From the NCBI GenBank assembly GCA_951406725.2, contig CATOCA020000018.1, forward strand, positions 1-64,000: a stretch of DNA of 64,000 bases, in the 5' to 3' direction. Position numbers and translations under genes: made by a program. Positions 16,332 to 64,000 of this stretch are shown one piece after another. The stretch comes from Octopus vulgaris (Eukaryota). Each line of letters starts with the position of its first letter. Positions within the stretch are counted from its first letter, which is position 1. The notes under the pieces are model-generated. The model was not told where the DNA came from, did no database searches, and was given only the letters and a program-made list of their open reading frames with translations.

Positions 16332-16726
16332 TCTTTATATATAAAAGTGAGGTTGTGTGTCTGTCTCCTACGATTTAGATTCCTAACTACTCCCACATTT
16401 TGCGGTGCAGTTTAACCAAAACCGGGTATCTTATAGTCGTGATTCATATCCAGACCGTCTGGGTATTAGCGCGCGTCTACGATGAGTCTACGATTAAAAA
16501 AAAAATCTACCATCAATTTTTCACATTTTTAATCCATTTTTGACATATATAAGGGAAGTAACTCTCTAAAATTTATTATTAAATCTCAGAACGTAAAAAG
16601 CTACAGTAACACCCCTCCCCCTTTGTGATTAGCCATATTGAGATGGCTATTATACTTTACATCTCTAAAAATGCTTATATAATTATTTCCCTTACAAACC
16701 CGAGTAACGCCGGGCGATACTGCTAG
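16332..16726 (+). mobile_element. Non-autonomous Helitron (395 bp), second family
   Basis: A|TCTTTATATATAAAAGTG start; end cccgagtaacgccgggcgatactgCTAG|T with a cccg/cggg hairpin ~13 nt before the end; no TSD. Confidence 0.88.
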
Positions 16727-16833
16727 TATGTGTATAAATGCATATACATATGCATAGATATATGCTTACACATACAATATATCCGCATATATATAGATTG
16801 ATAGATACATGCATACATACATATATACAGACT

Positions 16834-16865
<32 letters not shown>

Positions 16866-17170: not shown

Positions 17171-18510
17171 GTATCTCGTGATACTTTTCCGGCATCGGTC
17201 GCGGGTACGTCCACGTGTACTCGGGCGATACCGCGAGCTTAGGTTCGTTCTTTCGATTTCGGGCACGGTAGCGCGGCGGAGCAACGGGCGACTGGTGCAG
17301 GCCCTGCGCAACCCTGCCGCTGGCGGCCCCTACTTTATACTAGCCGCAGTTTCCATCTTTCGGGAATTTACGTAACGGACCACGTTGCTGTATCGACAGC
17401 GTGTATCTCGTGATATCCTTCCAGCATTGGTCGCGGGTACGTCCACGTTTACGTGGGTCACACCATTAGCTTCGAGAATGTCCGGTGTCGTCCGCCGACA
17501 CAGCGGCCTCACTCGAGCTCGATACCGAGAACTCACCCCAGAACTCGCCGCTTCGTGCCTCGTCGATAACTCTGGTACACGGTCGCATTACGTCCACGCT
17601 TACGTGGACGACATCGCGAGCTTCTGTTCGTTCTAACGGGTACATTAGGGCGGCGGAGCTCCGAGAGGCTGCCGCAGGCCTGCCGATGGCGGCCCCCCAC
17701 CTTATTCTAGCCGCAGTTTCCATCTTTCGGGACTTTACGGGAAGGACCACGTCTCTGTATCGACAGCGTGTATCTCATCACATCCTTTCGGCATCGGTCG
17801 CGTGTACGTCCAGGTTTACGTGGCGATACCCCGAGCTTAGGTTCGTTCTTTCGATTTCGGGCACGGTAACGCGGCGGAGCTCCTGGCGATTGGCGCAGGC
17901 CTGGCGCAACCCTGCCGCTGATGGCCTCTACTTTATACTCGCCGCAGTTGCTATCTTTCGGGATTTTACGGGGCGGACTACGTCTCTGTATCGACAGCGT
18001 GTATCTCGTGACATCCTTCCGGCATCGGTCGCGTGTACGTCCAGTTTTACGTGGCGATACCGCGAGCTTAGGTTCGTTCTTTCGATTTCGGGCACGGTAG
18101 GGCGGCGGAGCTCCGGGCGATTGGCGCAGGCCTGGCGCAACCCTGCCGCTGGCGGCCTCTACTTTATACTCGCCGCAGTTGCCATCTTTCGGGATTTTAC
18201 GGGGCGGACTACGTCTCTGTATCGACAGCGTGTATCTCGTGACATCCCTCCGGCATCGGTCGCGTGTACGTCCACGTGTACGAAGGCGATACCGCGAGGT
18301 TCGCATCAGCCTTACTAGATCGGGCACGGTAGGGCGGCGGAGCAACGGGCAGCTAGCGCAACCCTTCTACTGGCGGCCCCTACTTTATACTCGCCGCAGT
18401 TTCCTTCTTTCGGGAATTTACGGGACGGACCACGTCGCAGTACCAACCACGTGTATCTCGTGGCATCCTTCCAGCATTGGTCGTGGGTACGTCCACGTGT
18501 ACGTGGGTGA
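17171..18510. repeat. CpG-rich sub-repeat array A, ~231-bp period, about 5 partly interrupted units
   Basis: cgacagcgtgtatctc recurs at 17394, 17761, 17992 and 18223 (231-bp spacing for the last three); the unit after 17403 carries a B-type insert. Confidence 0.92.
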
Positions 18511-19080
18511 CGACACCATTAGTTTCGAGAAAGTCCGGTGTCGTCCGCCGGCACAGCGGCCCCACTCGTGCTCGATACCGAGAACTCACCTCAGAAATCG
18601 CCGCTTCCTGCCTCGTCGATCACATTCTGACACTCTCGTGCTTCACGTCGACTATAAGTTTGGCTTATCGACCGACCTAAATCACCTGCTACTTAAGCAC
18701 TACGATCTTTCTCCGAGATTCTCCCGCCGCCGTTTCGCTGGGCTTTGTCTTGCTTTGGGATTCGTCCGCCGACACGCCGGCCACAGTCGTGCTCGATACC
18801 GAGAACTCAACCCAGGAGTTGCCGATTCGTGCATCGCCGATATTACACAAACACACACTCGTGCTTCACGTCGACTATAAGTTTGACTTATCGACCGACC
18901 TAAATCACCTGCTACTTAAGCACTGCGATCTTTCTCCGAGATTCTCCCGCCGCCGTTTGGCTGGGCTTTTGTCGTGCTTTGGGATTCGTCCGCCGACACG
19001 CCGGCCCCAGTCGTGCTCGATACCGAGAACTCACCCCAGGAGTTGCCGATTCGTGCCTCGTCCATATCACACGGACACAT
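18510..19080. repeat. CpG-rich sub-repeat array B, ~223-bp period
   Basis: cgtccgccg..gctcgataccgagaactca near 18542, 18763, 18987 (and 17489); ctcgtgcttcacgtcgactataag near 18635 and 18857. Confidence 0.9.
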
Positions 19081-19197
19081 ATACTCATGCGTCGGTCGTA
19101 GTCGCCGCTGCATTTTTCAGTTATTGGCAACGCCGCCGCTAGAGGACCACCGACCGGTTTAGAGACGTTTGTAGAACCAGCTTCGTATGATAAACAC

Positions 19198-22100
19198 TTA
19201 ACGCTACGTGCCGCGAGGCCCTAGCTCATATATCGAACTCGCGAAGGCTACTTTACCAACATAACATCATTGAACACAGCAACGCTACCGAACGAGCGAA
19301 CAAAAATAAGAAAGAAATCTTACGCTTCGGGCCGCGAGGCCCTGACTGATATCGAACTCGTGACGTTTACTTTACCAACATAACATCACTGAACACAGCA
19401 ACGCTACCGAACGAGCGAACAAAAAAAAAATTTTACGCTTCGGGCCGCGAGGCCCTGCCTGATATCGAACTCGCGACGTTTACTTTACCAACATAACATC
19501 ACTGAACACAGCAACGCTACCGAACGAGCGAACAAAAAAAAAAAGTTTTGCGCTTCGGGCCGCGAGGCCCTGACTGATATCGAACTCGTGACGTTTACTT
19601 TACCAACAAAACATCACTGAACACAGCAACGCTACCGAACGAGCGAACAAAAGAAAAAAAAAATTTTACGCTTCGGGCCGCGAGGCCCTGACTGATATCG
19701 AACTCGTGACGTTTACTTTACCAACAAACATCACTGAACACAGCAACGCTACCGAACGAGCGAACAAAAGAAAAAAAAAATTTACGCTTCGGGCCGCGAG
19801 GCCCTGACTGATATCGAACTCGTGACGTTTACTTTACCAACATAACATCACTGAACACAGCAACGCTACCGAACGAGCGAACAAAAAAAAAAGTTTTGCG
19901 CTTCGGGCCGCGAGGCCCTGCCTGATATCGAACTCGTGACGTTTACTTTACCAACAAAACATCACTGAACACAGCAACGCTACCGAACGAGCGAACAAAA
20001 GAAAAAATTTTACGCTTCGGGCCGCGAGGCCCTGACTGATATCGAACTCGTGACGTTTACTTTACCAACAAACATCACTGAACACAGCAACGCTACCGAA
20101 CGAGCGAACAAAAAAAAAAAAAATTTACGCTTCGGGCCGCGAGGCCCTGACTGATATCGAACTCGTGACGTTTACTTTACCAACATAACATCACTGAACA
20201 CAGCAACGCTACCGAACGAGCGAACAAAAAAAAAAAAAGTTTTGCGCTTCGGGCCGCGAGGCCCTGCCTGATATCGAACTCGTGACGTTTACTTTACCAA
20301 CAAAACATCACTGAACACAGCAACGCTACCGAACGAGCGAACAAAAAAAAAAAAAATTTACGCTTCGGGCCGCGAGGCCCTGACTGATATCGAACTCGTG
20401 ACGTTTACTTTACCAACAAACATCACTGAACACAGCAACGCTACCGAACGAGCGAACAAAAAAAAAAAAAAATTTACGCTTCGGGCCGCGAGGCCCTGAC
20501 TGATATCGAACTCGTGACGTTTACTTTACCAACAAACATCACTGAACACAGCAACGCTACCGAACGAGCGAACAAAAGAAAAAAAAAGTTTTGCGCTTCG
20601 GGCCGCGAGGCCCTGACTGATATCGAACTCGTGACGTTTACTTTACCAACATAACATCACTGAACACAGCAACGCTACCGAACGAGCGAACAAAAAAAAA
20701 AAAGTTTTGCGCTTCGGGCCGCGAGGCCCTGCCTGATATCGAACTCGTGACGTTTACTTTACCAACAAAACATCACTGAACACAGCAACGCTACCGAACG
20801 AGCGAACAAAAAAAAAAAAATTTTACGCTTCGGGCCGCGAGGCCCTGACTGATATCGAACTCGTGACGTTTACTTTACCAACATAACATCACTGAACACA
20901 GCAACGCTACCGAACGAGCGAACAAAAAAAAAAAGTTTTGCGCTTCGGGCCGCGAGGCCCTGACTGATATCGAACTCGTGACGTTTACTTTACCAACAAA
21001 ACATCACTGAACACAGCAACGCTACCGAACGAGCGAACAAAAGAAAAAAAAAAATTTACGCTTCGGGCCGCGAGGCCCTGACTGATATCGAACTCGTGAC
21101 GTTTACTTTACCAACAAACATCACTGAACACAGCAACGCTACCGAACGAGCGAACAAAAAAAAGTTTTGCGCTTCGGGCCGCGAGGCCCTGACTGATATC
21201 GAACTCGTGACGTTTACTTTACCAACAAAACATCACTGAACACAGCAACGCTACCGAACGAGCGAACAAAAAAAAAAAGTTTTACGCTTCGGGCCGCGAG
21301 GCCCTGCCTGATATCGAACTCGTGACGTTTACTTTACCAACAAAACATCACTGAACACAGCAACGCTACCGAACGAGCGAACAAAAAAAAAAGTTTTGCG
21401 CTTCGGGCCGCGAGGCCCTGACTGATATCGAACTCGTGACGTTTACTTTACCAACAAAACATCACTGAACACAGCAACGCTACCGAACGAGCGAACAAAA
21501 AAAAAAAAATTTTACGCTTCGGGCCGCGAGGCCCTGACTGATATCGAACTCGTGACGTTTACTTTACCAACAAAACATCACTGAACACAGCAACGCTACC
21601 GAACGAGCGAACAAAAAAAAAAAGTTTTGCGCTTCGGGCCGCGAGGCCCTGACTGATATCGAACTCGTGACGTTTACTTTACCAACAAAACATCACTGAA
21701 CACAGCAACGCTACCGAACGAGCGAACAAAAAAAAAAAAATTTTACGCTTCGGGCCGCGAGGCCCTGACTGATATCGAACTCGTGACGTTTACTTTACCA
21801 ACAAAACATCACTGAACACAGCAACGCTACCGAACGAGCGAACAAAAAAAAATAAAGCTCTACGCTTCGGGCCGCGAGGCCCTGCCTGATATCGAACTCG
21901 TGACGTTTACTTTACCAACAAAACATCACTGAACACAGCAACGCTACCGAACGAGCGAACAAAGAGAAAAAAAAAATTTACGCTTCGGGCCGCGAGGCCC
22001 TGACTGATATCGAACTCGTGACGTTTACTTTACCAACATAACATCACTGAAGACAGCAACGCTACCGAACGAGCGAACAAAAAAAAAAAAAAATTTTACG

Positions 22101-22725
22101 CTTCGGGCCGCGAGGCCCTGACTGATATCGAACTCGTGACGTTTACTTTACCAACATAACATCACTGAACACAGCAACGCTACCGAACGAGCGAACAAAA
22201 AAAAAAAAGTCTTACGCTTCGGGCCGCGAGGCCACGACTGATATCGAACTCGTGACGTTTACTTTACCAACATAACATCACTGAACACAGCAACGCTACC
22301 GAACGAGCGAACATAAAAAAAAAATAATATTACGCTTCGGGCCGCGAGGCCCTGACTGATATCGAACTCGTGACGTTTACTTTACCAACATAACATCACT
22401 GAACACAGCAACGCTACCGATCGAGCCAGCAAAAAAAAAAAAAAAAAATGTTACGCTTCGGGCCGCGAGGCCTGCCTGATATCGAACTCGTGACGTTTAC
22501 TTTACCAACAAAACATCACTGAACACAGCAACGCTACCGAACGAGCGAACAAAAAAAAATTAAAATTTTACGTTTCGGGCCGCGAGGCCCTGCCTGATAT
22601 CGAACTCGTGACGTTTACTTTACCAACATAACATCACAGCAACGCTACCGAACGAACGAACAACAAAATAAATAAATAAAAACGCAAAGCTACGGGCCGC
22701 GACGTCCTGGCTGATATCGAACTCA
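19198..22725. repeat. Tandem array C: about 30 copies of a ~116-bp CpG-rich unit with a variable A-tract
   Basis: Unit: ttacgcttcGGGCCgcgaGGCCCtgactgatatcgaactcgtgacgtttactttaccaaca(t/a)aacatcactgaacacagcaacgctaccgaacgagcgaac(A)n. I counted 29 near-identical hairpin cores from 19329 to 22576, plus degenerate end copies near 19209 and 22693. Confidence 0.98.
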
Positions 22726-23598
22726 CGAACGCGAGAGAAGGAGCGAAGCACAGCGAAAAGCTAACGTACGGGGGCAAGTGCGGACAATTTTTGGCAAAGC
22801 AAACCGTTGTAGGACGATATCGAACTGGGAACAGTATAGCAAGGCGTCCAGAAATTAACTGAGAATACGAATCTTGCCGGCTGGCTAATTTTTGCTTGAT
22901 GTTCACCCCCTAATATTGTCTGGGCCCCCTTGGGGTGCGACGGTCACCTAGAGCGTGACTATCCAGCCGGGGCCGATCCGTTTTCTTGCGGTCTGAGCAC
23001 CTCCTACGACTTACGGGTCGGACCACGTCGCTGTTTTTACCCGATACGTGGACGATATCGCGCGTTTAGTTTCGTGCTTTCGATTTCACGCACAGTACGG
23101 CGGCGGAGACGCAGGCGACCGGCGTGCGACGGTCACCTAGAGCGTGACTATCCAGCGTGGGCCGATCCGTAAGCTTACGGGTCTGATTTTTTTTAATTAC
23201 GGGTCAGTCCACGTATGTGTATTTTCCCGGTGCATATCGTAAGGTGAAGGATAAATTTACCGGATGTTTACGTTTTGATATACGACAACGCGGCGTGACG
23301 CGGTGATCGTATGCGAAACTTTGTATTATCTTCCCGATAGCCACCACGCTAGAGTTTTGTTGACATTGCTTCGTACCGTAACTTGAAGCATAAATTCACC
23401 GGATGTTTACGTTTTGCTATACGAGCACGCGGCCCAAAGGCGTAGCTGGCGGCCCCACGGTGGCACTTTTTGTTTTCTTTACGATTAAAGAAACCACGAC
23501 TTCCCTGTTGTTTTGTTCGTAATGTAGCGTTCGTAATTTCGATATTAGCAATTTCGATTTTACGTGAAAAATAAAATCATTTAACTTGTTATTTTTCG
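22725..23598. repeat. CpG-rich right flank of the island with degenerate A/C-related and local duplicated motifs
   Basis: gcgacggtcacctagagcgtgactatccagc twice (near 22937 and 23127); taaatt[t/c]accggatgtttacgttttg twice (near 23252 and 23391); an A-like segment at 23020-23120. Confidence 0.8.
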
Positions 23599-23864
23599 AC
23601 TGAAATAAGCCCGTCGTATATAAATAAATATATATATATATATGTGTGTGTCTGTTTGTCCCTCCCCCCGAACATCGCTTGACAACCGATGCTGGAGGTG
23701 TTTACATCCCCGTCAATTAGCCGCTTGGCACGAACCTCTAGGCTTAATAAGAATAAGTATTGGGATCGATTTGCTCGACTAAAGACGGTGCTCCAGCATG
23801 GCCACAGTCAAATGACTGAAACAAGGTAAATTAAAACGTATATATATATGTTCTTTTATATATG

Positions 23865-46965: not shown

Positions 46966-47550
46966 CATAAGACAGTAAGGTGTGATTTGAGGGAGATGTG
47001 GCTGCTATTTCTACCATGTCTAGCTGCCATGTAGGGGTCTCCCTCATAGGCTCATACATACATATATACATAGATAAGACAGTAAGGTGTGATTTGGGGG
47101 AAATTTGGCTGCTATTTCTACCAGGTCTAGCTACCATGTAGAGGTCCCCCTCATTGGCTCATATATATATACATACATAAGACAATGAGGTGTGATTTGA
47201 GGGAGATTTGGCTGCTGTTTCTACCAGGTCTGTTAGGCCTTCTCATGTAAACTCAAGCTTTCTCATGCCTTGAACATAAGACCAAAGCAGAGAATGTATT
47301 CTTTTATTCTTCTGCTTTTTCAAGCCATTGGTCTGTGGTCATGCTGGGGCAATGCCTTAAAGAATTGTAGTTTAATGAATCAACTCCAGTTTTATTTTTG
47401 TAAGCATTGTACTTATTCTATCTGTTTCCTTTGTCAAACCACTAGGTGACAGGGATGTAAACAAACCAACATTCGTTGTCAAGCAGTGGTGGAGGACAAT
47501 CACAAGCACAGACACGCACACACACACACATACAGCATACACATATACAC

Positions 47551-47581
<31 letters not shown>

Positions 47582-47599
47582 TTTGTGTGTATATATATA

Positions 47600-47860
47600 T
47601 TGCAGCGTGGAAGGTGTTTTGTAAAGCCATTTAAGAAACACACAAAAACCGTTAGATTCACTTCAACATTTAAATTTCATTTGCCAAAATATTTTCCTCG
47701 CTTTGAGACCGCGACCTGTTCACTGAAAAAAATATCGTGCTAACAGGTCGCGGTCTCAAAGCGACGAGAATATTTTGACAAATTAAATTTAAATGTTGAA
47801 GTGAATCTAACGGTTTTTGTGTGTTTCTTAAATGGCTTATAAACACCTTCAACGCTGCAA
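47600..47860. repeat. Second copy of the ~119-bp-arm fold-back
   Basis: Matches 15873-16131 within a larger duplication (about 15380-16726 = 47075-48417). Confidence 0.95.
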
Positions 47861-48018
47861 CTGTTTTCGTTCCAGCACACGATCTCAGATCAAGTCACTT
47901 GCTATGCAAGTACATCTCTGTAACTATATATATATTTATATATATATATGTATATTGGTAAAAACAGTAAGATAACAAAAGAAAGAAAGAGACCTCAATA
48001 TTATGTAAATAGAGGAAA

Positions 48019-48417
48019 TCTTTATATATAAAAGTGAGGTTGTGTGTCTGTCTGTCTCCTACGATTTAGATTCCTAACTACTCCCACATTTTGCGGTGCA
48101 GTTTAACCAAAACCGGGTATCTTATAGTCGTGATTCATATCGAGCCCGTCTGGGTAATAGCGCGCGTCTACGATGAGTCTACGATTTAAAAAAAAATTTA
48201 CCATCAATTTTTCACATTTTTAATCCATTTTTGACATATATAAGGGAAGTAACTCTCTAAAATTTATTATTAAATCTCAGAACGTAAAAAGCTACAGTAA
48301 CACCCCGCCCCCTTTGTGGTTAGCCATATTGAGATGGCTATTATACTTTACATCTCTAAAAATGCTTATATAATTATTTCCCTTACAAACCCGAGCAACG
48401 CCGGGCGATACTGCTAG
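48019..48417 (+). mobile_element. Non-autonomous Helitron, duplicate of 16332-16726
   Basis: Same TC start, hairpin and CTAG|T end, and the same left flank (so duplicated with its surroundings). Confidence 0.88.
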
Positions 48418-48437
48418 TGTATATATATGTATATGTT

Positions 48438-48559
<122 letters not shown>

Positions 48560-48724
48560 GGCGCAGGAGTAGCTGTGTGGTAAGTAGCTTGCTAACCAAC
48601 CACATGGCTCCGGGTTCAGTCCCACTGCGTGGCATCTTGGGCAAGTGTCTTCCGCTATAGCCCCGGGCCGACCAATGCCTTGTGAGTGGATTTGGTAGAC
48701 GGAAACTGAAAGAAGCCTGTCGTA

Positions 48725-54768: not shown

Positions 54769-54816
54769 ATATTTCGGAATGGTCATATTGCCAGTTTAGT
54801 AATAAATATTTAAACG

Positions 54817-54874
<58 letters not shown>

Positions 54875-54929
54875 GTTTAAATATTTATTGGCTAAACTGG
54901 CAATATGACCATTTATTTATATATTTATG

Positions 54930-55005
<76 letters not shown>

Positions 55006-55204
55006 CTATATATCTATATATCTATACATATGTGTGTGTGTATATATATATATGTAGATGTATATATATATACATATATAAAAAAATAAAGGTCTTTATT
55101 TTTCATGTACTTCAAAATTTGCCAGAAAATAATGGATCGTAGTAATCTTTGCTGCTATTTCTAGCATGTAAAAATTGCCTGTTAAAGGGTAATTTTCTAT
55201 TTTG

Positions 55205-55269
<65 letters not shown>

Positions 55270-55280
55270 TATATATATAC

Positions 55281-55332
<52 letters not shown>

Positions 55333-55349
55333 GTATGTATGTACGTAGG

Positions 55350-55390
<41 letters not shown>

Positions 55391-55514
55391 GTATTTAACT
55401 CACTATATAACATATGAGTTTCTCTCTCTCTCAATATAAAACTATTTTTCTCTATTATTACCCGTTGCTAAGCAACTCAGGGAAAAGGTGTGTGCGCGTG
55501 TGACTGTATTTTCA

Positions 55515-55598
<84 letters not shown>

Positions 55599-57060
55599 TC
55601 TGCGTGTATTTTTAAAATCTTCCGATTATCGCTGACTTGAAATATACATTTCATTTCGTTTGCCATTGTAAAGTTAGATTGTATCTGAGACAGAATTGAA
55701 AATGCAAAGTTTCTGTTGACAGGATACCTGAATTTTCTGTATCTTTTGCTGACCCACCCCACTCACGCCATTTAATTTCATCAGTACTTAAGGCCTTCTT
55801 CTCTCTCTCTGTCTACCCCTCTCTCTCTGTCTACCTCTCTCTGTCTGTCTGTCTGTCTGTATTTAACTCACTATACAACATATAAGTTTCTCTCTCTCTC
55901 TCAATATAAAACTATTCTTCTCTATTATTACCCGTTGCTAAGCAACTCAGGGAAAAGGTGTGCGCGTGTGTGATTGTGTTTTCAATTGTGTGTGTGTATG
56001 TGTGCGTTTGTGCCTTTCGACACCAGTGCGTGCGTGCGTAACGATACACACACAAACCTCCACAAACATAAACGCACAAAATTGAAAAAACACAGTTACA
56101 CACTCAAACACTCGCACACAGAAACGAAAATACACACGCACACTCACACTCACACACGCACACATACATATGGACAAACACCACACACACACACACAAAA
56201 ATGAAAATACTCAGTTACACACTCACACGCACACACACGCACACACACTAGAGCGCACACACACACACACACGCACAAGCAATAAACTGGAAACGCGCGC
56301 ACGCAGACACAGAAAGGAAAACACACATATGTGTGTGTGTGTGTGTGTATGTATGAATAGATTTTGTAGATGGAAACTGAAAGAAGCCCATCGTATATAA
56401 ATGTATACATATATGTGTGTGTGTGAGTGTTTGTGTCTGTTTGTCCCCCTTCAACATCGCTTGACAACCGATGCTGGGGTGTTTACATCCCCGTCAATTA
56501 GCCGCTTGGTAAGAAACGCTAGGCTTGAAAAGAATAAGTCTTGGTATCGATTTGCTCGACTAAAGGCGGTGCTCCAGCATGGCCACAGTCAGATGACTGA
56601 AACAAGGAAAATAAAAACATATATATATATATATATATGTATATGTTTATGTATGTATATGTATATGTTTACGTATATATATATATATATGTATATATAT
56701 ATAGGCGCAGGAGTGGCTGTGTGGTAAGTAGCTTGCTAACCAACCACTTGGCTCCGGGTTCAGTCCCACTGCGTGGCATCTTGGGCAAGTGTTTTCTGCT
56801 ATAGCCCCGGGCCGACCAATGCCTTGTGAGTGGATTTGGTGGACGGAAACTGAAAGAAGCCTGTCGTATATATGTATATAGACTTAGGGGTGGCTGTGTG
56901 GTAAGTAGTTTGCTAACCAACCACATGGCTCCGGGTTCAGTCCCACTGCGTGGCATCTTGGGCAAGTATCTTCTGCTATAGCCCAGGGCCGACCAATGCC
57001 TTGTGAGTGGATTTGGTAGACTGAAACTGAAAGAAGCCTGTCGTATATATGTATATATAT
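54228..57060. repeat. Partial fifth copy of the macrosatellite unit (right half)
   Basis: gccagaaaataatggatcgtgcc through the paired SINE heads matches 26294-29040. Confidence 0.92.
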
Positions 57061-57074
57061 ATATATATATATAC

Positions 57075-57115
<41 letters not shown>

Positions 57116-58208: not shown

Positions 58209-61200
58209 ATGCCACCCAAGAAGAGAAGGACCCTCCTCAGCCCTCGGACGGCCAAGGCATCGGCTGCTAGGGCTAGAAGGGCACGCGAGACCCACGAGGA
58301 AACCGCCTTGCGCTTCTCGCAAACAGCTTCCCGTTATGCCGCTGCTCGGGCATCTGAAACTACTAGCGACCGTTCTACCCGACTTGCAAGGGTCGCAGCG
58401 TACAGATCTTCCCTCCGCTCGAGGTTGACGAAAGAGCAACAGTCCAGCCAAAACATGCGGGCTTCTTACTGTGCTTCCATCCGCAGAGCTCGCGAGAACC
58501 CCGAACAAAGGGCCATTCGGAATGCGGCTAACGCCACTAGCACCGCCAGGACACGATCTGTCGAAACCTCACAGCAGAGGAGAACTCGCCAAGATGCTGA
58601 CGCCGCAAACAAAGCCATAGCCCAAGCTGCCGAAACACCTCAACAGAGGAGAGCTCGCCAAGCTGCTAACGCCGCAAACACAGCCAGGGCTCGATCTGCC
58701 GAAACTCCACACCAACGAAATATTCGGACATCCAGACAGGCCATTAACACTGCTTCTGCTAGGGCTTCAGAGGGTGCTGAGGCGAGAGCTGAAAGGCTTT
58801 CAAGGGATGCCACTGCTACCGCTGTCGCACGTGCATCTGAATCTGCTGAGGCACGGTGCACTCGACTTGAGAGTATCAACAAACGTCGGGATATCATTCT
58901 TGGTGTACGTACCCCTTCCCCCGCTTTCTGGTTGTCACTAACATTCAACTACGACGCCACAATTAACTTCTCCTTGCGTGACGACATCAAGATAGGGTCA
59001 ATGAGAATTGTATGCCAGTTTTGCAAAGCCAAGAAATGGCCCGGAGAGCCACCTGGTTTGTGCTGCTCTGGTGGCAAAGTGGACCTGCCACCCTACGGGA
59101 ACCACCTCAACCACTGAAGGATCTCGCGGCGGGTTTAACCCCCGAATCGTCACAATTCCTTGAAATAATTCGAAAGTACAACTGCTCATTCCAAATGACC
59201 TCTTTCGGGGCCAAAATTCCTCCCAGAGAAGGCTGGATGCCTACTTTCAAAGTGCAGGGACAGGTCTACCATCTTATTGGGTCACTTCTGCCAGACGAGA
59301 TTCAGCAGTCTTCTTTCCTCCAAATATACTTCATTGCCGACTACAACCACCAGGTTGATGCACGCCTTGGAATAATACCGGGTACAAGCTATGTTCCCCG
59401 CAAAGACATTCTTCTCCGTCTCCAAACCATGCTTCATGATATCAACAGCTACGTCTGCAGCTTCAGATATGTCTTGGACAGTGCTCCATCTCCAAACTTC
59501 ACCGTTGTCATTGGTGCTGATAAACGACCCCACGGGGAGCACGAACGCCGTTTCAACGCACCTGCGTGCAACGAAATTGCCGCAGTCATACACGGAGAGC
59601 GACACAACAGCCGTGACATAATCATCTCCTCCCGTGGTAACAACCTACACAGGATCAGCGAGACTCACAGATCTTATGACGCGCTTCAGTATCCATTGCT
59701 TTTCCCTTATGGGGAAGACGGCTACCACTTCGGAATTCCTTTACGGCAGCCCTCCAATCAAACTACTGCGGCATCAAAGACGGTTTCCTGCAGGGCGTTC
59801 TACTCATATCGGTTCATGGTCAGGGAGGGTGAGTTCAGCTTATTGCCCCGTTGTCGTCAGCTATTCAACCAGTTCGCCGTCGACATGGCCGCAAAAATGG
59901 AATCGGAAAGGCTGCTATACATTAAACTTAATCAGACCAAACTTCGCTCCGACTCCTACATTCATCTCCGTGACGGTTTGCAACAAGAAAATGACCCTCG
60001 CAACATCGGCAAGCCATGCATTCTACCCTCCACCTTCACGGGAGGACCGCGATATATGCGTGAAAGGACCCAAGACGCCTTGACCTACGTGCGCATTTAC
60101 GGCCGGCCGGACCTCTTTATCACCTACACGTGCAATCCCAGCTGCGACGAAATCACTCGCGAACTCCTCCCGGGTCAATCTCACACCCATCGACACGACA
60201 TCGTTGCTAGGGTTTTCCGTCTGAATTTGGGCAAAATTAAGGATTTGATAGTTAAGGGTCAGATTTTCGGGCATGTCAGGTGCCACGTTTTCGGTCGAGT
60301 GGCAAAAGAGGGGCTTGCCACATGCTCACGTCTTAATTTGGCTCACTCATAAAATCGAGACTAATGACATTGACAAATTCATTTCCGCCGAGATTCCTGA
60401 CCCCGATGAGGACCCCGGACTCTACGAAATTGTCCGCACTACCATGGTACACGGGCCCTGTGGACCAAATTACGCCAACACACCATGCTACAAAAACGGA
60501 TTAGCCTGCTCAACGGGATTCCCTAAACGGTTCACTTTGGAGACTCAAACAGGCGGCGATGGGTATCCGCTGTACAAACGAAGGAGTCGAGCCAATGGAG
60601 GCCGCACACGATTACGGTTGGGCGACATCAAGTGGACAACAGCTACATTGTCCCCTACTGTCCTCTCCTGTCGAAGATATTCAAAGCCCACGTCAACGTT
60701 GAGTTCTGCAGCTCCATCAGGTCAAAACAATATGTCTGCAAATATATCAACAAAGGCAGCGATGTTGCCATGTTCAGCATCCAGAGGACCACCAGTCGCG
60801 ACGAAGTGTCCAACTATTTTCAAACAAGATGATGGTCGTGAACCCCCTCCATTTGATAGATCGGTACCTCCAATGCTTCGATTGATCATCACGCGGGACG
60901 AAGTCAAACGTGTTATCCAAGGCATCGATGTCAACAAGGGTCACGGCCCTGATGGCATACACCCACGGGTTATCAAAGCGTTGGCTCCGGTCATCTGCGA
61001 GCCCTTAACACGACTATTCAATATGTCATTGGCGACGGGTGTTATACCTGCAGACTGGAGAACAGCGATAATCTGCCCAATTTTCAAGACCCGCTTAGCT
61101 ACCGACCGGTTTCCCTTACATCAATAATCAGCAAGATGTTCGAAACCATCCTTAAGAAAAGTATGATGCTCCACCTCCTAAACACAGCCTCGATCACTGA

Positions 61201-62418
61201 TTCCCAACACGGCTTCGTGCCGAAGAGATCATGCTTGACCAACTTACTAGTAATGGAAGAATTGGTGACGTGCATCCTCGATGATAGTGATGCTGTTGAC
61301 ATCGTTTTATTGGACTTTGCCAAAGCTTTTGACTCGGTAAACCACCGAGCATATAGTTTCCATCCGGATATTGTACGATGGGTTGGTGCCTTCCTCTCAG
61401 ATCACTCCTTCCAAGTTCAAGTTAATGGTTCGCGGTCCGACGTCTCCAGTGCGAGCAGTGGCGTGCCTCAAGGTTCAGTGCTTGGGCTCTTGTTGTTCTT
61501 AGTCTTCATAAATGACTTGCCCGACGACCTCACGCAACACACCCTTCTATTTGCCGACGATATCAAACTAGTCGCTCCTCGCGGTAGTATAGAGGATCTT
61601 CGTCGATGCCTCCACCAAATTTGGAAGTGGTCTAACGATTGGGACATGTGTCTGAACGTGTCAAAGTGTTGTCATCTGCCTGTCGGCTCTACTCCTGCAA
61701 CTCAACTTGATTTCGAGCCGGGTCGTCTGCTGCTGGAGAGGACCGATCAGGTAAAGGACCTGGGTATCTTGGTGGATTCCTCCTTATCGCCTTCGGCCCA
61801 GTGCGTCCATGCTGCCAACAAAGCGCGCGGAATTCTGTTTTTGATTCGACGGTCATTCGGAATGCTCACAGCAGCCATATTCCTGCCACTCTATGTCACG
61901 CTGGTGAGACCCATATTGGAGTATGGGATTCAAGCCTCTTCTCCTTATCTTCTCAAAGACATACAGCATCTCGAAAGAGTCCAGAGGCTGGCTACCCGCA
62001 TGGTTCATGGTCTCAAAAATTTGTCCTACGAAGAAAGGCTGAGGACGCTCGACCTTTATTCTCTTGAAAAACGCCGCCGCCGCCGTGGTGATCTCATTCT
62101 CGCCCACAACATCATAAGCGGAAAGTGTAACCTCTCGAAAGAGCTGTTCTTCACTCCTGCTCCGGAGCGTCGGCTGCGGGTCATTCCGAAAAGCTCTACC
62201 TGCGACGATTTCATCTCAATCGAAGGAGAGGAGCTTTCTCCGTCCGGGTTGCGGATCCGTGGAACAAGCTGCCAGACGAGATGGTGAAGATGCCGACGAC
62301 CGCTTTGTTCAGAGCCTCCCTGGACCTCAAGTGGCCTGAACTCTTTACATGAACACCACCCTGTACTTAACTCCATGTCCCCCTACATGGCCTTGCTATT
62401 TGCTTTTGAGCCAATTAT

Positions 62419-62456
<38 letters not shown>

Positions 62457-64000
62457 CTTGGCTGGCCGGTACCTCAGCAGCAACGAAGCGTTTTGGCGCA
62501 TTTACGGCAACTTGCTGGTGCAGCTTGCTGTACACTTGGAAAATGGACAGCGGATTTACTTCACAGAGCAAAGTGCTGTGCAGATAGCCACCAGCCCTAA
62601 AGACACAACGTTGACTGGTTTCTTCAAATTATGCCAACGTGATGACTTCGCTCGAACGCTTTTGTACCCACAGGTCCCATCGTACTTCGTGTGGTCTAAA
62701 AACACCTGGGTTCGACGGAAATCCGGCAAAAACGTCGAAGGCTTCCCAGGCGTCAAGTTTGACTTCTGCCTGGGTCGAGTTTACAACATCCCGCCAAACC
62801 AGCAAGAATGCTTCTACCTCCGTCTCCTTCTACATGAGGTCAATGGTCCAACAGGTTTCGCCAATATACGTACCATCAATGGGGTTCTGTGCGACACCTT
62901 CAGGGAAGCATGTATGAGACTTGACCTTCTAGAGGATGACTCCCAGTGGGACGCCACGATGGCAGAGGGCGCTTTACTGCAAACGCATTCGGCCCTACGA
63001 CATCTTTTCGCAATCCTTCTTCAAAAATGTCAGCTTAGTGATCCACTAAGTCTCTGGATGAAATACAGGGATGACATGTCGCACGACTTCTTACGTACGG
63101 CTCAGCAACACTGCCCTTCTGCCGAGATCACGTTCACCAACTTCATTTACAATTTTGCGCTCATTCAACTCGAAGACGCTGTCATCGATATGGGTGGGTC
63201 TGCTTTAACAGAGTACGGCCTTCCACCACCCACACGTGAACACGCCAATGTTATGTCTGCTGAATTGTTACGCGAAACTTCCTACTGCATTGAGGAACTG
63301 CACCAGTACGTCCAAGATAATGAACCACGGCTGCTTCCAGACCAGCGCATAGCCTACAACACCATCGTAGACTCTGTCAGACAGCAACGTGGAGGGATTT
63401 TCTTCCTTGATGCACCCGGCGGCACTGGCAAAACCTTCGTCACTAAACTAATTCTGGCAGAGGTCAGACGCAACACGGACATTGCCCTGGCTGTAGCTTC
63501 CTCTGGTATCGCGGCCACGTTGCTTCCGGGTGGCAGAACCGCCCACTCTGCCTTCGACGAGTGCACTATGGCACACAAAGGCGCCCTTGAGGCACTGGAC
63601 AGGTCCCTGCAAGACATCAGAGACTCTACGGCCCCCATGGGAGGATTAACTTTACTTCTTTCAGGAGACTTCAGGCAGACTCTAACTGTTATTCCAAAAG
63701 GAACCCGTGCCGATGCCGTGTGCGCGTGCCTTAAGTCGTCAGCTCTTTGGGCACATGTGCGGCCCTTGCACCTCCAAACTAACATGCGCGCGCAGTTAAT
63801 TGGTGACAGCGGATCCGCTGCATTCTCCAGGGACCTCTTATCGCTCGGTGAAAATAGGATGCTGTCTGATGCGGATGGCTACGTTCAATTGGACTCACTT
63901 TGCACCATTGTCGACACCCCTGTTAGCCTCCGGGACGCTGTCTTCCACGACCTACAAAACAATTTACGCGACCTAAAATGGCTGGCAGGCAGAGCTATTC
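58209..64000 (+). pseudogene. Helitron RepHel transposase pseudogene (several frameshifts, LINE insertion, internal deletions)
   Basis: MPPKKRR start; ET.QQRR.RQ repeats; CQFCKAKKWPGEPPGLCC; ILPSTFTGGPRYM; YGRPDLFITYTCNP; HUH motif VEWQKRGLPHAH; YVCKYINKG; after the LINE, GRYLSSNEAFWRI; helicase FLDAPGGTGKTF, SSGIAATLLPGGRTAHS, DECTM, GDFRQ. Confidence 0.93.
60817..62451 (+). mobile_element. 5'-truncated CR1-group LINE (RT only) with (TAAC)n tail, nested in the Helitron
   Basis: GPDGIHPRV, QHGF, LDFAKAFDSV, GVPQGSVLG, FADD, LERVQRLATRMV (ORF 61136-62287); tail 62419-62456; the Helitron frame DEVSNY|LAGRY is restored on excision. Confidence 0.93.

What the first reader, a model, noticed from the sequence alone, without database searches (positions are those of the whole stretch)
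19198..22725. About 30 near-identical 116-bp units shaped like small structured RNA cassettes
Seen: each unit carries a GGGCC-GCGA-GGCCC hairpin (GNRA tetraloop on the plus strand), ends that could pair (CGCTTCG with CGAGCG, one bulge) and an A-tract separating units. On the minus strand each ~105-nt unit contains GAGTTCGATATC (close to a Pol III B box), has a weak A-box-like TAGCGTTGCTG about 14 nt in, and ends in a long T run (Pol III terminator-like). The stems stay almost invariant while changes cluster around the A-tract and two other sites. Inference: a tandem array of Pol III small-RNA genes, or a concatemer of a short A-tailed RNA. It may equally be a plain satellite, since homogenisation alone gives invariance.
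Basis: partly seen in the sequence, partly recalled or inferred. Interest (0 to 1): 0.75.

Follow-up and report, generated by a model that had tools for sequence, protein, structure and literature searches.

The report
Repeat array behind an rRNA promoter
Thirty copies of a 116-base repeat sit where the ribosomal RNA genes would be in a displaced copy of the ribosomal-DNA control region, right behind a copy of the predicted ribosomal RNA promoter, so the ribosomal RNA polymerase likely copies them into one long repeat RNA rather than into many separate small RNAs.

Summary
The array is real: 29.9 copies of 116 bp at 19201-22672, plus a degenerate copy to 22728. The small-RNA cassette reading is weak. 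There is no Rfam match, the A/B boxes are no better than in shuffles, single units do not fold better than shuffles, and 70 scored hairpins show no compensatory change. The context is what stands out. On the minus strand the array lies about 180 bp behind a ~90% identical copy of the 136-bp module that precedes this genome's 5'ETS/18S and recurs as spacer promoters; the homology stops at the TATA-GGG initiator. Behind the array come relatives of the post-28S repeats and of the spacer repeats. This is the rDNA order with the 45S region replaced. The unit occurs at three assembled places (two loci) and in runs of four organism labels. Contig depths hint at more copies and at multi-unit RNA, but run type, strand and start site are unknown. 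Best reading (0.45): a satellite in an rDNA-like unit, read by Pol I as one long repeat RNA, like human PNCTR. Main rival (0.35): a passive satellite in an orphan spacer. I found no description in print.

The parts
19201..22728 (-). Tandem array of about 30 units of 116 bp (T tract, B-box-like motif, GC hairpin); edge copies degenerate; traces of a 349-bp trimer period
22729..22905 (-). Leader between the predicted initiator and the array; found only at the three island copies; holds one more B-box-like motif at 22816
   Evidence: likeness to the unit is only marginal (41 and 14 of 500 shuffles)
22906..23043 (-). Copy of the rDNA promoter module (predicted Pol I promoter), about 90% identical to gene and spacer promoters; homology ends at the TATA-GGG initiator (predicted start near 22911)
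   Evidence: function inferred from position, not tested
23045..23240 (-). rDNA spacer-like piece with a partial second copy of the promoter module (23121-23229) that lacks the initiator
23241..23598 (+). CpG-rich upstream stretch with degenerate relatives of the unit in the opposite orientation (23450-23548); pieces match the cargo of a dispersed DNA transposon
   Evidence: 0 of 1000 shuffles for 23495-23570; 27 of 1000 for 23380-23500
19081..19200 (-). Junction after the array; the part most diverged between the window and the C28 copy (about 7%)
18520..19080 (-). 223-bp repeats; part of each is about 72% identical to the 141-bp repeats that follow 28S in the true rDNA, and 71-86% to dispersed 140-bp orphans
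17173..18510 (-). 231-bp repeats homologous (about 67-88%) to the rDNA spacer repeats that lie between spacer promoters; no promoter module among them here

Best explanation
The array is a 116-bp satellite that stands between a copy of the predicted rDNA promoter and copies of the rDNA spacer repeats, in the place of the rRNA genes, and it is likely transcribed by RNA polymerase I as one long multi-unit RNA. Shown: the order of parts, their homology to the genome's own rDNA, the orientation of the promoter into the array, and the absence of rRNA sequence. Inferred: an old rDNA unit lost its 45S region from just after the start site to the 3' spacer; a local repeat family, whose older relatives lie inverted upstream of the promoter, expanded there by slippage and unequal exchange; Pol I would start near 22911, read the minus strand through a ~180-nt leader and ~3.5 kb of units, and end in the spacer-like repeats. 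The product would be a multivalent RNA with a U tract every 116 nt. A role as a protein-binding nucleolar scaffold, as for PNCTR, is a guess.
For: (1) True rDNA, mapped with Rfam 18S/5.8S/28S, runs promoter module - 5'ETS - 45S - 141-bp repeats - spacer repeats with spacer promoters. The window's minus strand has promoter module - leader - array - 141-bp-type repeats - spacer-type repeats. (2) Identity to 6 gene-type and 31 spacer-type promoters peaks at 94-96% just upstream of the initiator and falls to 42-57% right after it, where gene and spacer promoters also part. A TATA plus GGGG core is described as general for rDNA promoters (PMC6730533, passage). (3) Promoter region window vs C28: 2 differences in 329 bp, against 134 in 4793 in the flanks (p=0.012); after masking simple repeats 0 of 235 vs 58 of 2559 (p=0.013); weak, one of six parts tested. 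(4) The real 5'ETS holds sense-strand T runs of 9-15, so such runs need not stop Pol I. (5) Promoter, leader and array sequence are present in runs of organism labels A, C and D, and array plus left flank in B. (6) Hints only, since the tool warns that contig depth is neither copy number nor expression: summed array-to-flank depth is 3230-3813 in X1 and 276-724 in X16, against 44-54 in X5 and X7 and 77-192 in X15 and X17; the rDNA allele of the promoter outweighs the island allele in X15 and X17 (12x, 37x) but not in X1 and X16 (0.55x, 0.18x); the bin with the tract between units is covered as in the DNA-like runs (0.36, 0.25 vs 0.43, 0.31). (7) Single contigs in X1 and X16 bridge promoter, leader and the last unit with no gap.
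Against: No run is on record as RNA; X1 is a guess and X16 is unlabelled. Strand and start are unknown from contigs. There is no sharp fall at the predicted start: X1 has contigs of depth 165, then 67 wholly upstream; X16 has 69, then 65; both leader contigs run about 50 bases past the initiator. An excess of array over leader is not predicted by plain read-through; it needs a trimmed leader or selective capture. Plus-strand A tracts would be caught by oligo-dT (established knowledge), and one X1 loose end that looks like the second-read adapter (recalled) lies on the plus strand, which in a dUTP library would mean plus-strand RNA (one contig, library unknown). X5 and X7 show no excess. The island as a whole is not better conserved than its flanks (28 of 1645 vs 58 of 2559, p=0.22). 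The C28 copy has a 1.87-kb insertion just after the initiator. rDNA fragments are scattered widely in this genome, so a promoter can end up beside a satellite by chance. The spacer order is only broadly collinear: no spacer promoters lie among the 231-bp repeats.
Confidence: 0.45

Rival explanations
1. A passive satellite in an orphaned rDNA spacer fragment. The promoter copy is inactive or incidental; any RNA is pervasive or plus-strand transcription that oligo-dT enriches through the A tracts.
For: Many rDNA spacer orphans across chromosomes. Unit copy number differs between copies: 19 in C28, 31 in C48, 29 or more in C42. Hairpin variants never compensate. Contig cover falls off on both sides of the array in X1 and X16 instead of starting at the promoter. 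One copy is interrupted at the start site.
Against: The promoter homology ends exactly at the initiator and faces the array, and the downstream parts follow rDNA order. The promoter is the least diverged part between paralogs. Flank contigs have depths near 1000 in X17 and several thousand in X15, hinting at many copies of the whole unit (single-copy depth not measured).
Confidence: 0.35
2. A tandem array of Pol III type-2 genes, each making a ~105-nt vault- or VA-like RNA that ends at the T run.
For: A-box-like and B-box-like motifs 48-49 nt apart, each with one mismatch to a recalled consensus, followed by a T run. The B-box-like motif survives in degenerate edge copies at 22713 and 22816. 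Standard libraries would miss such monomers.
Against: The box pair is matched in 23-32% of shuffles. No Rfam family: gathering threshold on the window and on 10 related loci gave 0; E<10 on 501 bp gave two chance hits. ARAGORN finds no tRNA. Fold z is not significant. The tract is bridged like DNA. The same motif lies in a transposon cargo segment.
Confidence: 0.1
3. The unit works as DNA: a natural pseudo-NOR-like element whose promoter and spacer repeats bind Pol I factors and tether the locus to the nucleolus, with the array acting as a binding-site or spacer array.
For: It keeps rDNA promoter and spacer repeats without rRNA genes, like engineered pseudo-NORs and neo-NORs (PMC4973289, passages). 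It is CpG-rich like the true spacer (observed/expected 1.3-2.0 vs 0.85-0.88 in the flanks).
Against: No binding or localisation data. Only 6.4 kb per copy, against megabase arrays in pseudo-NORs. The unit shows no significant homology to the present spacer (18 and 66 of 300 shuffles).
Confidence: 0.1

Closest known systems
PNCTR, human Pol I repeat lncRNA (PMC6224606, passages read)
   Same: Repeat-rich RNA from rDNA spacer context, made by Pol I as a long, non-polyadenylated, pyrimidine-rich multimer.
   Different: PNCTR lies inside the spacer of true rDNA units and has short (UC)n-type repeats (repeat type recalled). Here a 116-bp unit has its own promoter copy, replaces the 45S region and lies away from rRNA genes. 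Pol I dependence is shown for PNCTR and only inferred here.
PpNATR76, moss IGS-related transcribed tandem repeat (PMC6302065, passages read)
   Same: Short-monomer tandem repeat tied to rDNA spacer sequence and found in transcripts.
   Different: Most PpNATR76 copies are within the 45S spacer. This unit was not found in the 29 rDNA-related loci searched and is not demonstrably homologous to the spacer.
Pseudo-NORs and neo-NORs (PMC4973289, passages read)
   Same: rDNA control elements without, or with foreign, transcribed sequence, placed outside the NOR.
   Different: Those are engineered megabase arrays; pseudo-NORs lack promoters and neo-NORs drive pre-rRNA. This is natural, has a promoter copy and a non-rRNA cargo.
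Vault RNA, adenovirus VA RNA and other Pol III type-2 genes (recalled)
   Same: About 100 nt, internal A/B-like motifs, terminal T run.
   Different: Boxes at chance level, no stable terminal stem, no Rfam match, no sign of monomer ends.
Self-cleaving satellites such as newt satellite 2 and schistosome Sm-alpha (recalled)
   Same: Tandem repeat possibly transcribed as a multimer.
   Different: No hammerhead core on either strand of a trimer and no ribozyme family in Rfam.

Membership tests
Pol III type-2 small RNA gene | A box and B box above chance, at 25-70 nt spacing | tested here: not met
   One mismatch each to the looser recalled consensus, two each to the stricter; 231 and 324 of 1000 shuffles do as well
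Pol III type-2 small RNA gene | Run of 4 or more T after the B box | tested here: met
   T tract after every unit on the minus strand
Pol III type-2 small RNA gene | Discrete monomer transcript | tested here: inconclusive
   Contigs cover the tract as in DNA-like runs, but contigs cannot show ends and short RNAs are lost
Pol III type-2 small RNA gene | TFIIIC/Pol III occupancy | not testable with these tools
   needs ChIP
Known structured RNA family (Rfam 15) | Covariance-model match | tested here: not met
   0 at gathering threshold; two chance hits at E 0.44 and 4.7
Structured RNA under selection | Compensatory base changes | tested here: not met
   70 units scored (30 window, 19 C28, 21 of about 29 in C42): 56 perfect, 5 keep a G-U, 9 break a pair, 0 change both sides; power is low because copies are near-identical
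Hammerhead satellite | CUGANGA and GAAA core with three stems | tested here: not met
   No exact CUGANGA on either strand of a trimer (motif recalled)
Spliced-leader RNA | Sm site and leader joined to many mRNAs | tested here: not met
   No RAU4-6GR match; share of laid contigs running on into unlike sequence 0 to 0.02
45S rDNA unit | Promoter module upstream of the transcribed region | tested here: met
   About 90% identity over 136 bp, ending at the initiator; activity untested
45S rDNA unit | Post-28S and spacer repeats downstream | tested here: met
   72% and 67-88% identity in rDNA order
45S rDNA unit | 18S, 5.8S and 28S genes | tested here: not met
   No Rfam rRNA hit in the window or in L011-L020
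PNCTR-type Pol I repeat lncRNA | Long multimeric transcript | tested here: inconclusive
   Depth hints in X1 and X16, none in X5 and X7; run type guessed
PNCTR-type Pol I repeat lncRNA | Dependence on Pol I; perinucleolar location; bound protein | not testable with these tools
   needs inhibitors, FISH, pull-down
IGS-derived satellite | Monomer homologous to a spacer sub-repeat | tested here: inconclusive
   8 shuffle tests against spacer, post-28S repeats, 5'ETS and 45S body; best 1 of 100 and 7 of 300, not convincing after 8 tests
Transposon-derived satellite | Monomer homologous to a transposon segment | tested here: met
   73-75% over 75-78 nt to a segment of a 1.2-1.5-kb element with ~210-bp terminal inverted repeats and 8-bp target duplications; 0 of 1000 shuffles
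Transposon-derived satellite | Direction: transposon is the donor | tested here: inconclusive
   The segment is in 15 of 40 scored candidates (639 in all, the rest mostly terminal repeat only), matches the island's upstream part better (87-92%) than the unit, and travels with a spacer-like piece closer to the island than to rDNA: capture from an island-like source is more parsimonious

The most novel reading that the evidence does not exclude
Octopods carry a second, multi-copy class of rDNA-like transcription unit in which the 45S region is replaced by a 116-bp repeat array: a natural, selected, non-ribosomal Pol I gene whose abundant multivalent repeat RNA has its own nucleolar or regulatory role.
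Probability: 0.25. Interest if true: 0.8.

Novelty: new variant of a known kind. Interest (0 to 1): 0.55.

Why it matters
In animals Pol I is thought to serve rDNA almost alone; the known extra products (PNCTR, pRNA, spacer RNAs) come from inside rDNA units (PMC10730139, passage). A natural unit that keeps the promoter and spacer but swaps the rRNA for a repeat array would show that a Pol I promoter can be reused for a new RNA outside the NOR. It would also be a natural test of whether nucleolar association needs pre-rRNA or only Pol I transcription. The C28 copy, interrupted at the start site, offers a built-in comparison. If the rival holds, it is still a clear case of how a satellite grows in a displaced rDNA spacer.

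Tried and rejected
Rfam and ARAGORN: nothing in the window or neighbouring loci. Single-unit folding: not significant. Vault RNA, SL RNA, C/D snoRNA boxes, hammerhead core and telomerase template: no match (motifs recalled). Origin of the unit from 45S or from the present spacer: not shown. The array as part of ordinary rDNA spacers: not found in 29 rDNA-related loci, and the genome search gave 3 of 3 candidate places, none with rRNA nearby. LTR-retroelement origin of the island, suggested by L025: dropped once the repeats proved to be rDNA spacer sequence. Run search: no RNA holder on record; 6 of 24 listed runs were laid (X1, X5, X7, X15, X16, X17). X1 has no cover at 23415-23650 and gaps on the left; a hole proves nothing. 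X1 and X16 contigs both stop at 22964, but this is where the duplicated promoter piece begins and further contigs overlap it, so it is no start-site hint. Earlier findings near this place or like this sequence: none. Literature: 8 searches listed nothing on this element or on an octopus rDNA spacer; the library lacks most subscription papers, and no supplements were opened. Pfam found no family for the two long ORFs near the C28 copy.

Full report
Observation. The array is as described: 116-bp period, 29.9 copies at 19201-22672, 94% matches, with a degenerate copy to 22728. Units differ mainly in the A/T tract and at two sites. The genome has 2.8 Gb in 227 contigs. It is probably an octopus: I recall the flanking SINEs as octopus families, and earlier notes on this genome say so; I did not test this. 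A search with one unit gave 79 matches at 3 of 3 candidate places: C48 (the window, 31), C42 (29, contig starts inside the array) and C28 (19). C48 and C42 match over their whole shared length at 94-99%; C28 shares only about 15.4-29.3 kb, so there are two loci.

Test of the cassette idea. Rfam and ARAGORN find nothing. Single units fold no better than shuffles. The A/B box pair is matched by 23-32% of shuffles; the GNRA-type hairpin by 1%. Among 70 scored units, 56 have the perfect hairpin, 5 keep a G-U pair, 9 break a pair and none changes both sides. There is no hammerhead core, Sm site or telomerase template. The T run is real, but nothing else marks a Pol III gene.

Context. The array lies in a CpG-rich island at 17.2-23.6 kb. 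Searches with its flanks hit many chromosomes, and those loci contain 18S, 5.8S and 28S. In the true rDNA, read in the sense direction, a 136-bp module ending in a TATA-GGG motif stands about 1.6 kb before 18S and recurs as spacer promoters; 28S is followed by seven 141-bp repeats and then ~230-bp repeats with spacer promoters. The window's minus strand reads: partial promoter copy, promoter module (23043 to 22908, about 90%), 180-bp leader, array, 223-bp repeats (72% to the 141-bp repeats over 81 bp), 231-bp repeats (67-88% to spacer repeats). Identity to 6 gene-type and 31 spacer-type promoters is 94-96% just before the initiator and 42-57% just after. That the module is the Pol I promoter is inferred from its position and from the TATA plus GGGG core described for rDNA (PMC6730533, passages). 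So the array takes the place of the 45S region in an rDNA-like unit.

Origin of the unit. A 14-mer from the unit occurs 107 times, 38 of them outside the arrays, against 7 for the reversed control. Four of 11 loci inspected belong to a 1.2-1.5-kb element with ~210-bp terminal inverted repeats and 8-bp target duplications (exact in 6 of 8 copies tested). One segment of it matches the unit at 73-75% over 75-78 nt, including the motif, the hairpin region and the T run, and matches the island's upstream part (23450-23548, opposite strand) at 87-92%. The segment is in 15 of 40 scored candidates out of 639 and travels with a spacer-like piece closer to the island than to rDNA. Capture from an island-like source is the simpler reading, but direction is unresolved. 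Homology of the unit to present rDNA is not shown.

Sequencing runs. No holder is on record as RNA, all are contigs, and the tool warns that their depth is neither copy number nor expression; what follows is a hint. Runs of four organism labels hold island sequence. X15 and X17, which I take as whole-genome DNA from their size, have flank contigs at depths of several thousand and about 760-1035, while their rDNA promoter contigs are only 1.6 and 4.6 times deeper per contig; this suggests many more copies than the three assembled. Summed array-to-flank depth is 3230-3813 in X1 and 276-724 in X16, against 44-54 in X5 and X7 and 77-192 in X15 and X17. The island promoter allele outweighs the rDNA allele in X1 and X16, the reverse of X15 and X17. 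The profile over units in X1 follows X17 (r=0.995 over 10 bins; largely set by how contigs are placed), and the tract between units is covered alike, which fits multimers. Against the Pol I reading: no sharp fall at the predicted start, contigs running 50 bases past it, cover fading on both sides, and one adapter loose end that may point to plus-strand RNA. The C28 copy carries 15 of 18 alleles common in the runs but has a 1.87-kb Helitron-like insertion just after the initiator; the X1 and X16 contigs cross this site without it, and the X1 contig carries a variant at 22917 that gives a TATA start like the spacer promoters.

Constraint. Between window and C28 the promoter region differs at 2 of 329 bases, the flanks at 134 of 4793 (p=0.012; masked 0 of 235 vs 58 of 2559, p=0.013). 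The whole island does not differ from the flanks (p=0.22). This is weak and chosen after the fact.

Mechanism and rivals. Most likely (0.45) Pol I starts near 22911 and reads the array as one long U-tract RNA; the true 5'ETS holds T runs of 9-15, so these need not stop it. Next (0.35) a passive satellite in an orphan spacer, with any RNA caught through A tracts. Pol III monomers (0.10) and a DNA-level nucleolar role (0.10) remain open.

Comparison with what is known. It would work like PNCTR, a Pol I repeat RNA from the human spacer (PMC6224606, passages), and resembles moss PpNATR76 (PMC6302065, passages) and engineered neo-NORs (PMC4973289, passages). It is not a member of any of them: it lies outside true rDNA and has its own promoter copy. 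A review lists spacer-derived nucleolar RNAs (PMC10730139, passages). A Pol III gene inside a spacer is known for turtle 5S (PMC8789306, search listing only). Eight searches found no description of this element. Earlier notes report relocated rDNA units and an R2 parasite in this genome; I did not test them, and the first raises the prior for chance orphans.

Verdict. Real, more interesting for its context than for its internal motifs, and new as a variant. Interest 0.55.

Noticed in passing
G000:C28 9,618,844-9,620,710 (equivalent to window 22905/22906): A 1.87-kb insertion with a Helitron-like end (hairpin plus CTAG) separates the promoter from the array in the C28 copy, just after the initiator.
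   Followed up: partly
L033-L035 (G000:C33 175,001-205,000): 30 kb of continuous rDNA spacer repeats with 30 promoter modules and no 18S landmark: a promoter-and-spacer-only array. Not confirmed with Rfam.
   Followed up: partly
L093, L096, L097, L102, L105-L109: Non-autonomous DNA transposon, 1.2-1.5 kb, ~210-bp terminal inverted repeats, 8-bp target duplication, carrying island-like cargo, a spacer-like piece and telomere-like repeats.
   Followed up: partly
window about 23600-46550 and 54800-57100: Tandem 5.7-kb SINE-rich segment in about four full copies plus partial ones here, about one in C28.
   Followed up: partly
window 58209-64000: Broken Helitron-like Rep/helicase region (Pfam STPRs and PIF1) interrupted at about 60.8-62.4 kb by a LINE-like reverse transcriptase piece (RT read by eye).
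   Followed up: partly
L025 880-2050 (G000:C27): 140-bp post-28S-type repeats sit inside what looks like the 5' region of an LTR retroelement; described only.
   Followed up: no
L015 4457-9959 (G000:C28): Two long intronless ORFs (1191 and 677 aa) 8-13 kb from the C28 island, with no Pfam family.
   Followed up: partly
L050 317-9679: The rRNA genes are long: 18S spans about 2.6 kb and 28S about 4.9 kb.
   Followed up: no
window 17330, 17928, 18159, 18380: The island's 231-bp repeats carry a TATA-like motif on the minus strand that was absent from 5 rDNA spacer loci checked.
   Followed up: no
window 47072-48560: A second copy (91%) of the island's left flank (15379-16865) with no island beside it.
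   Followed up: no
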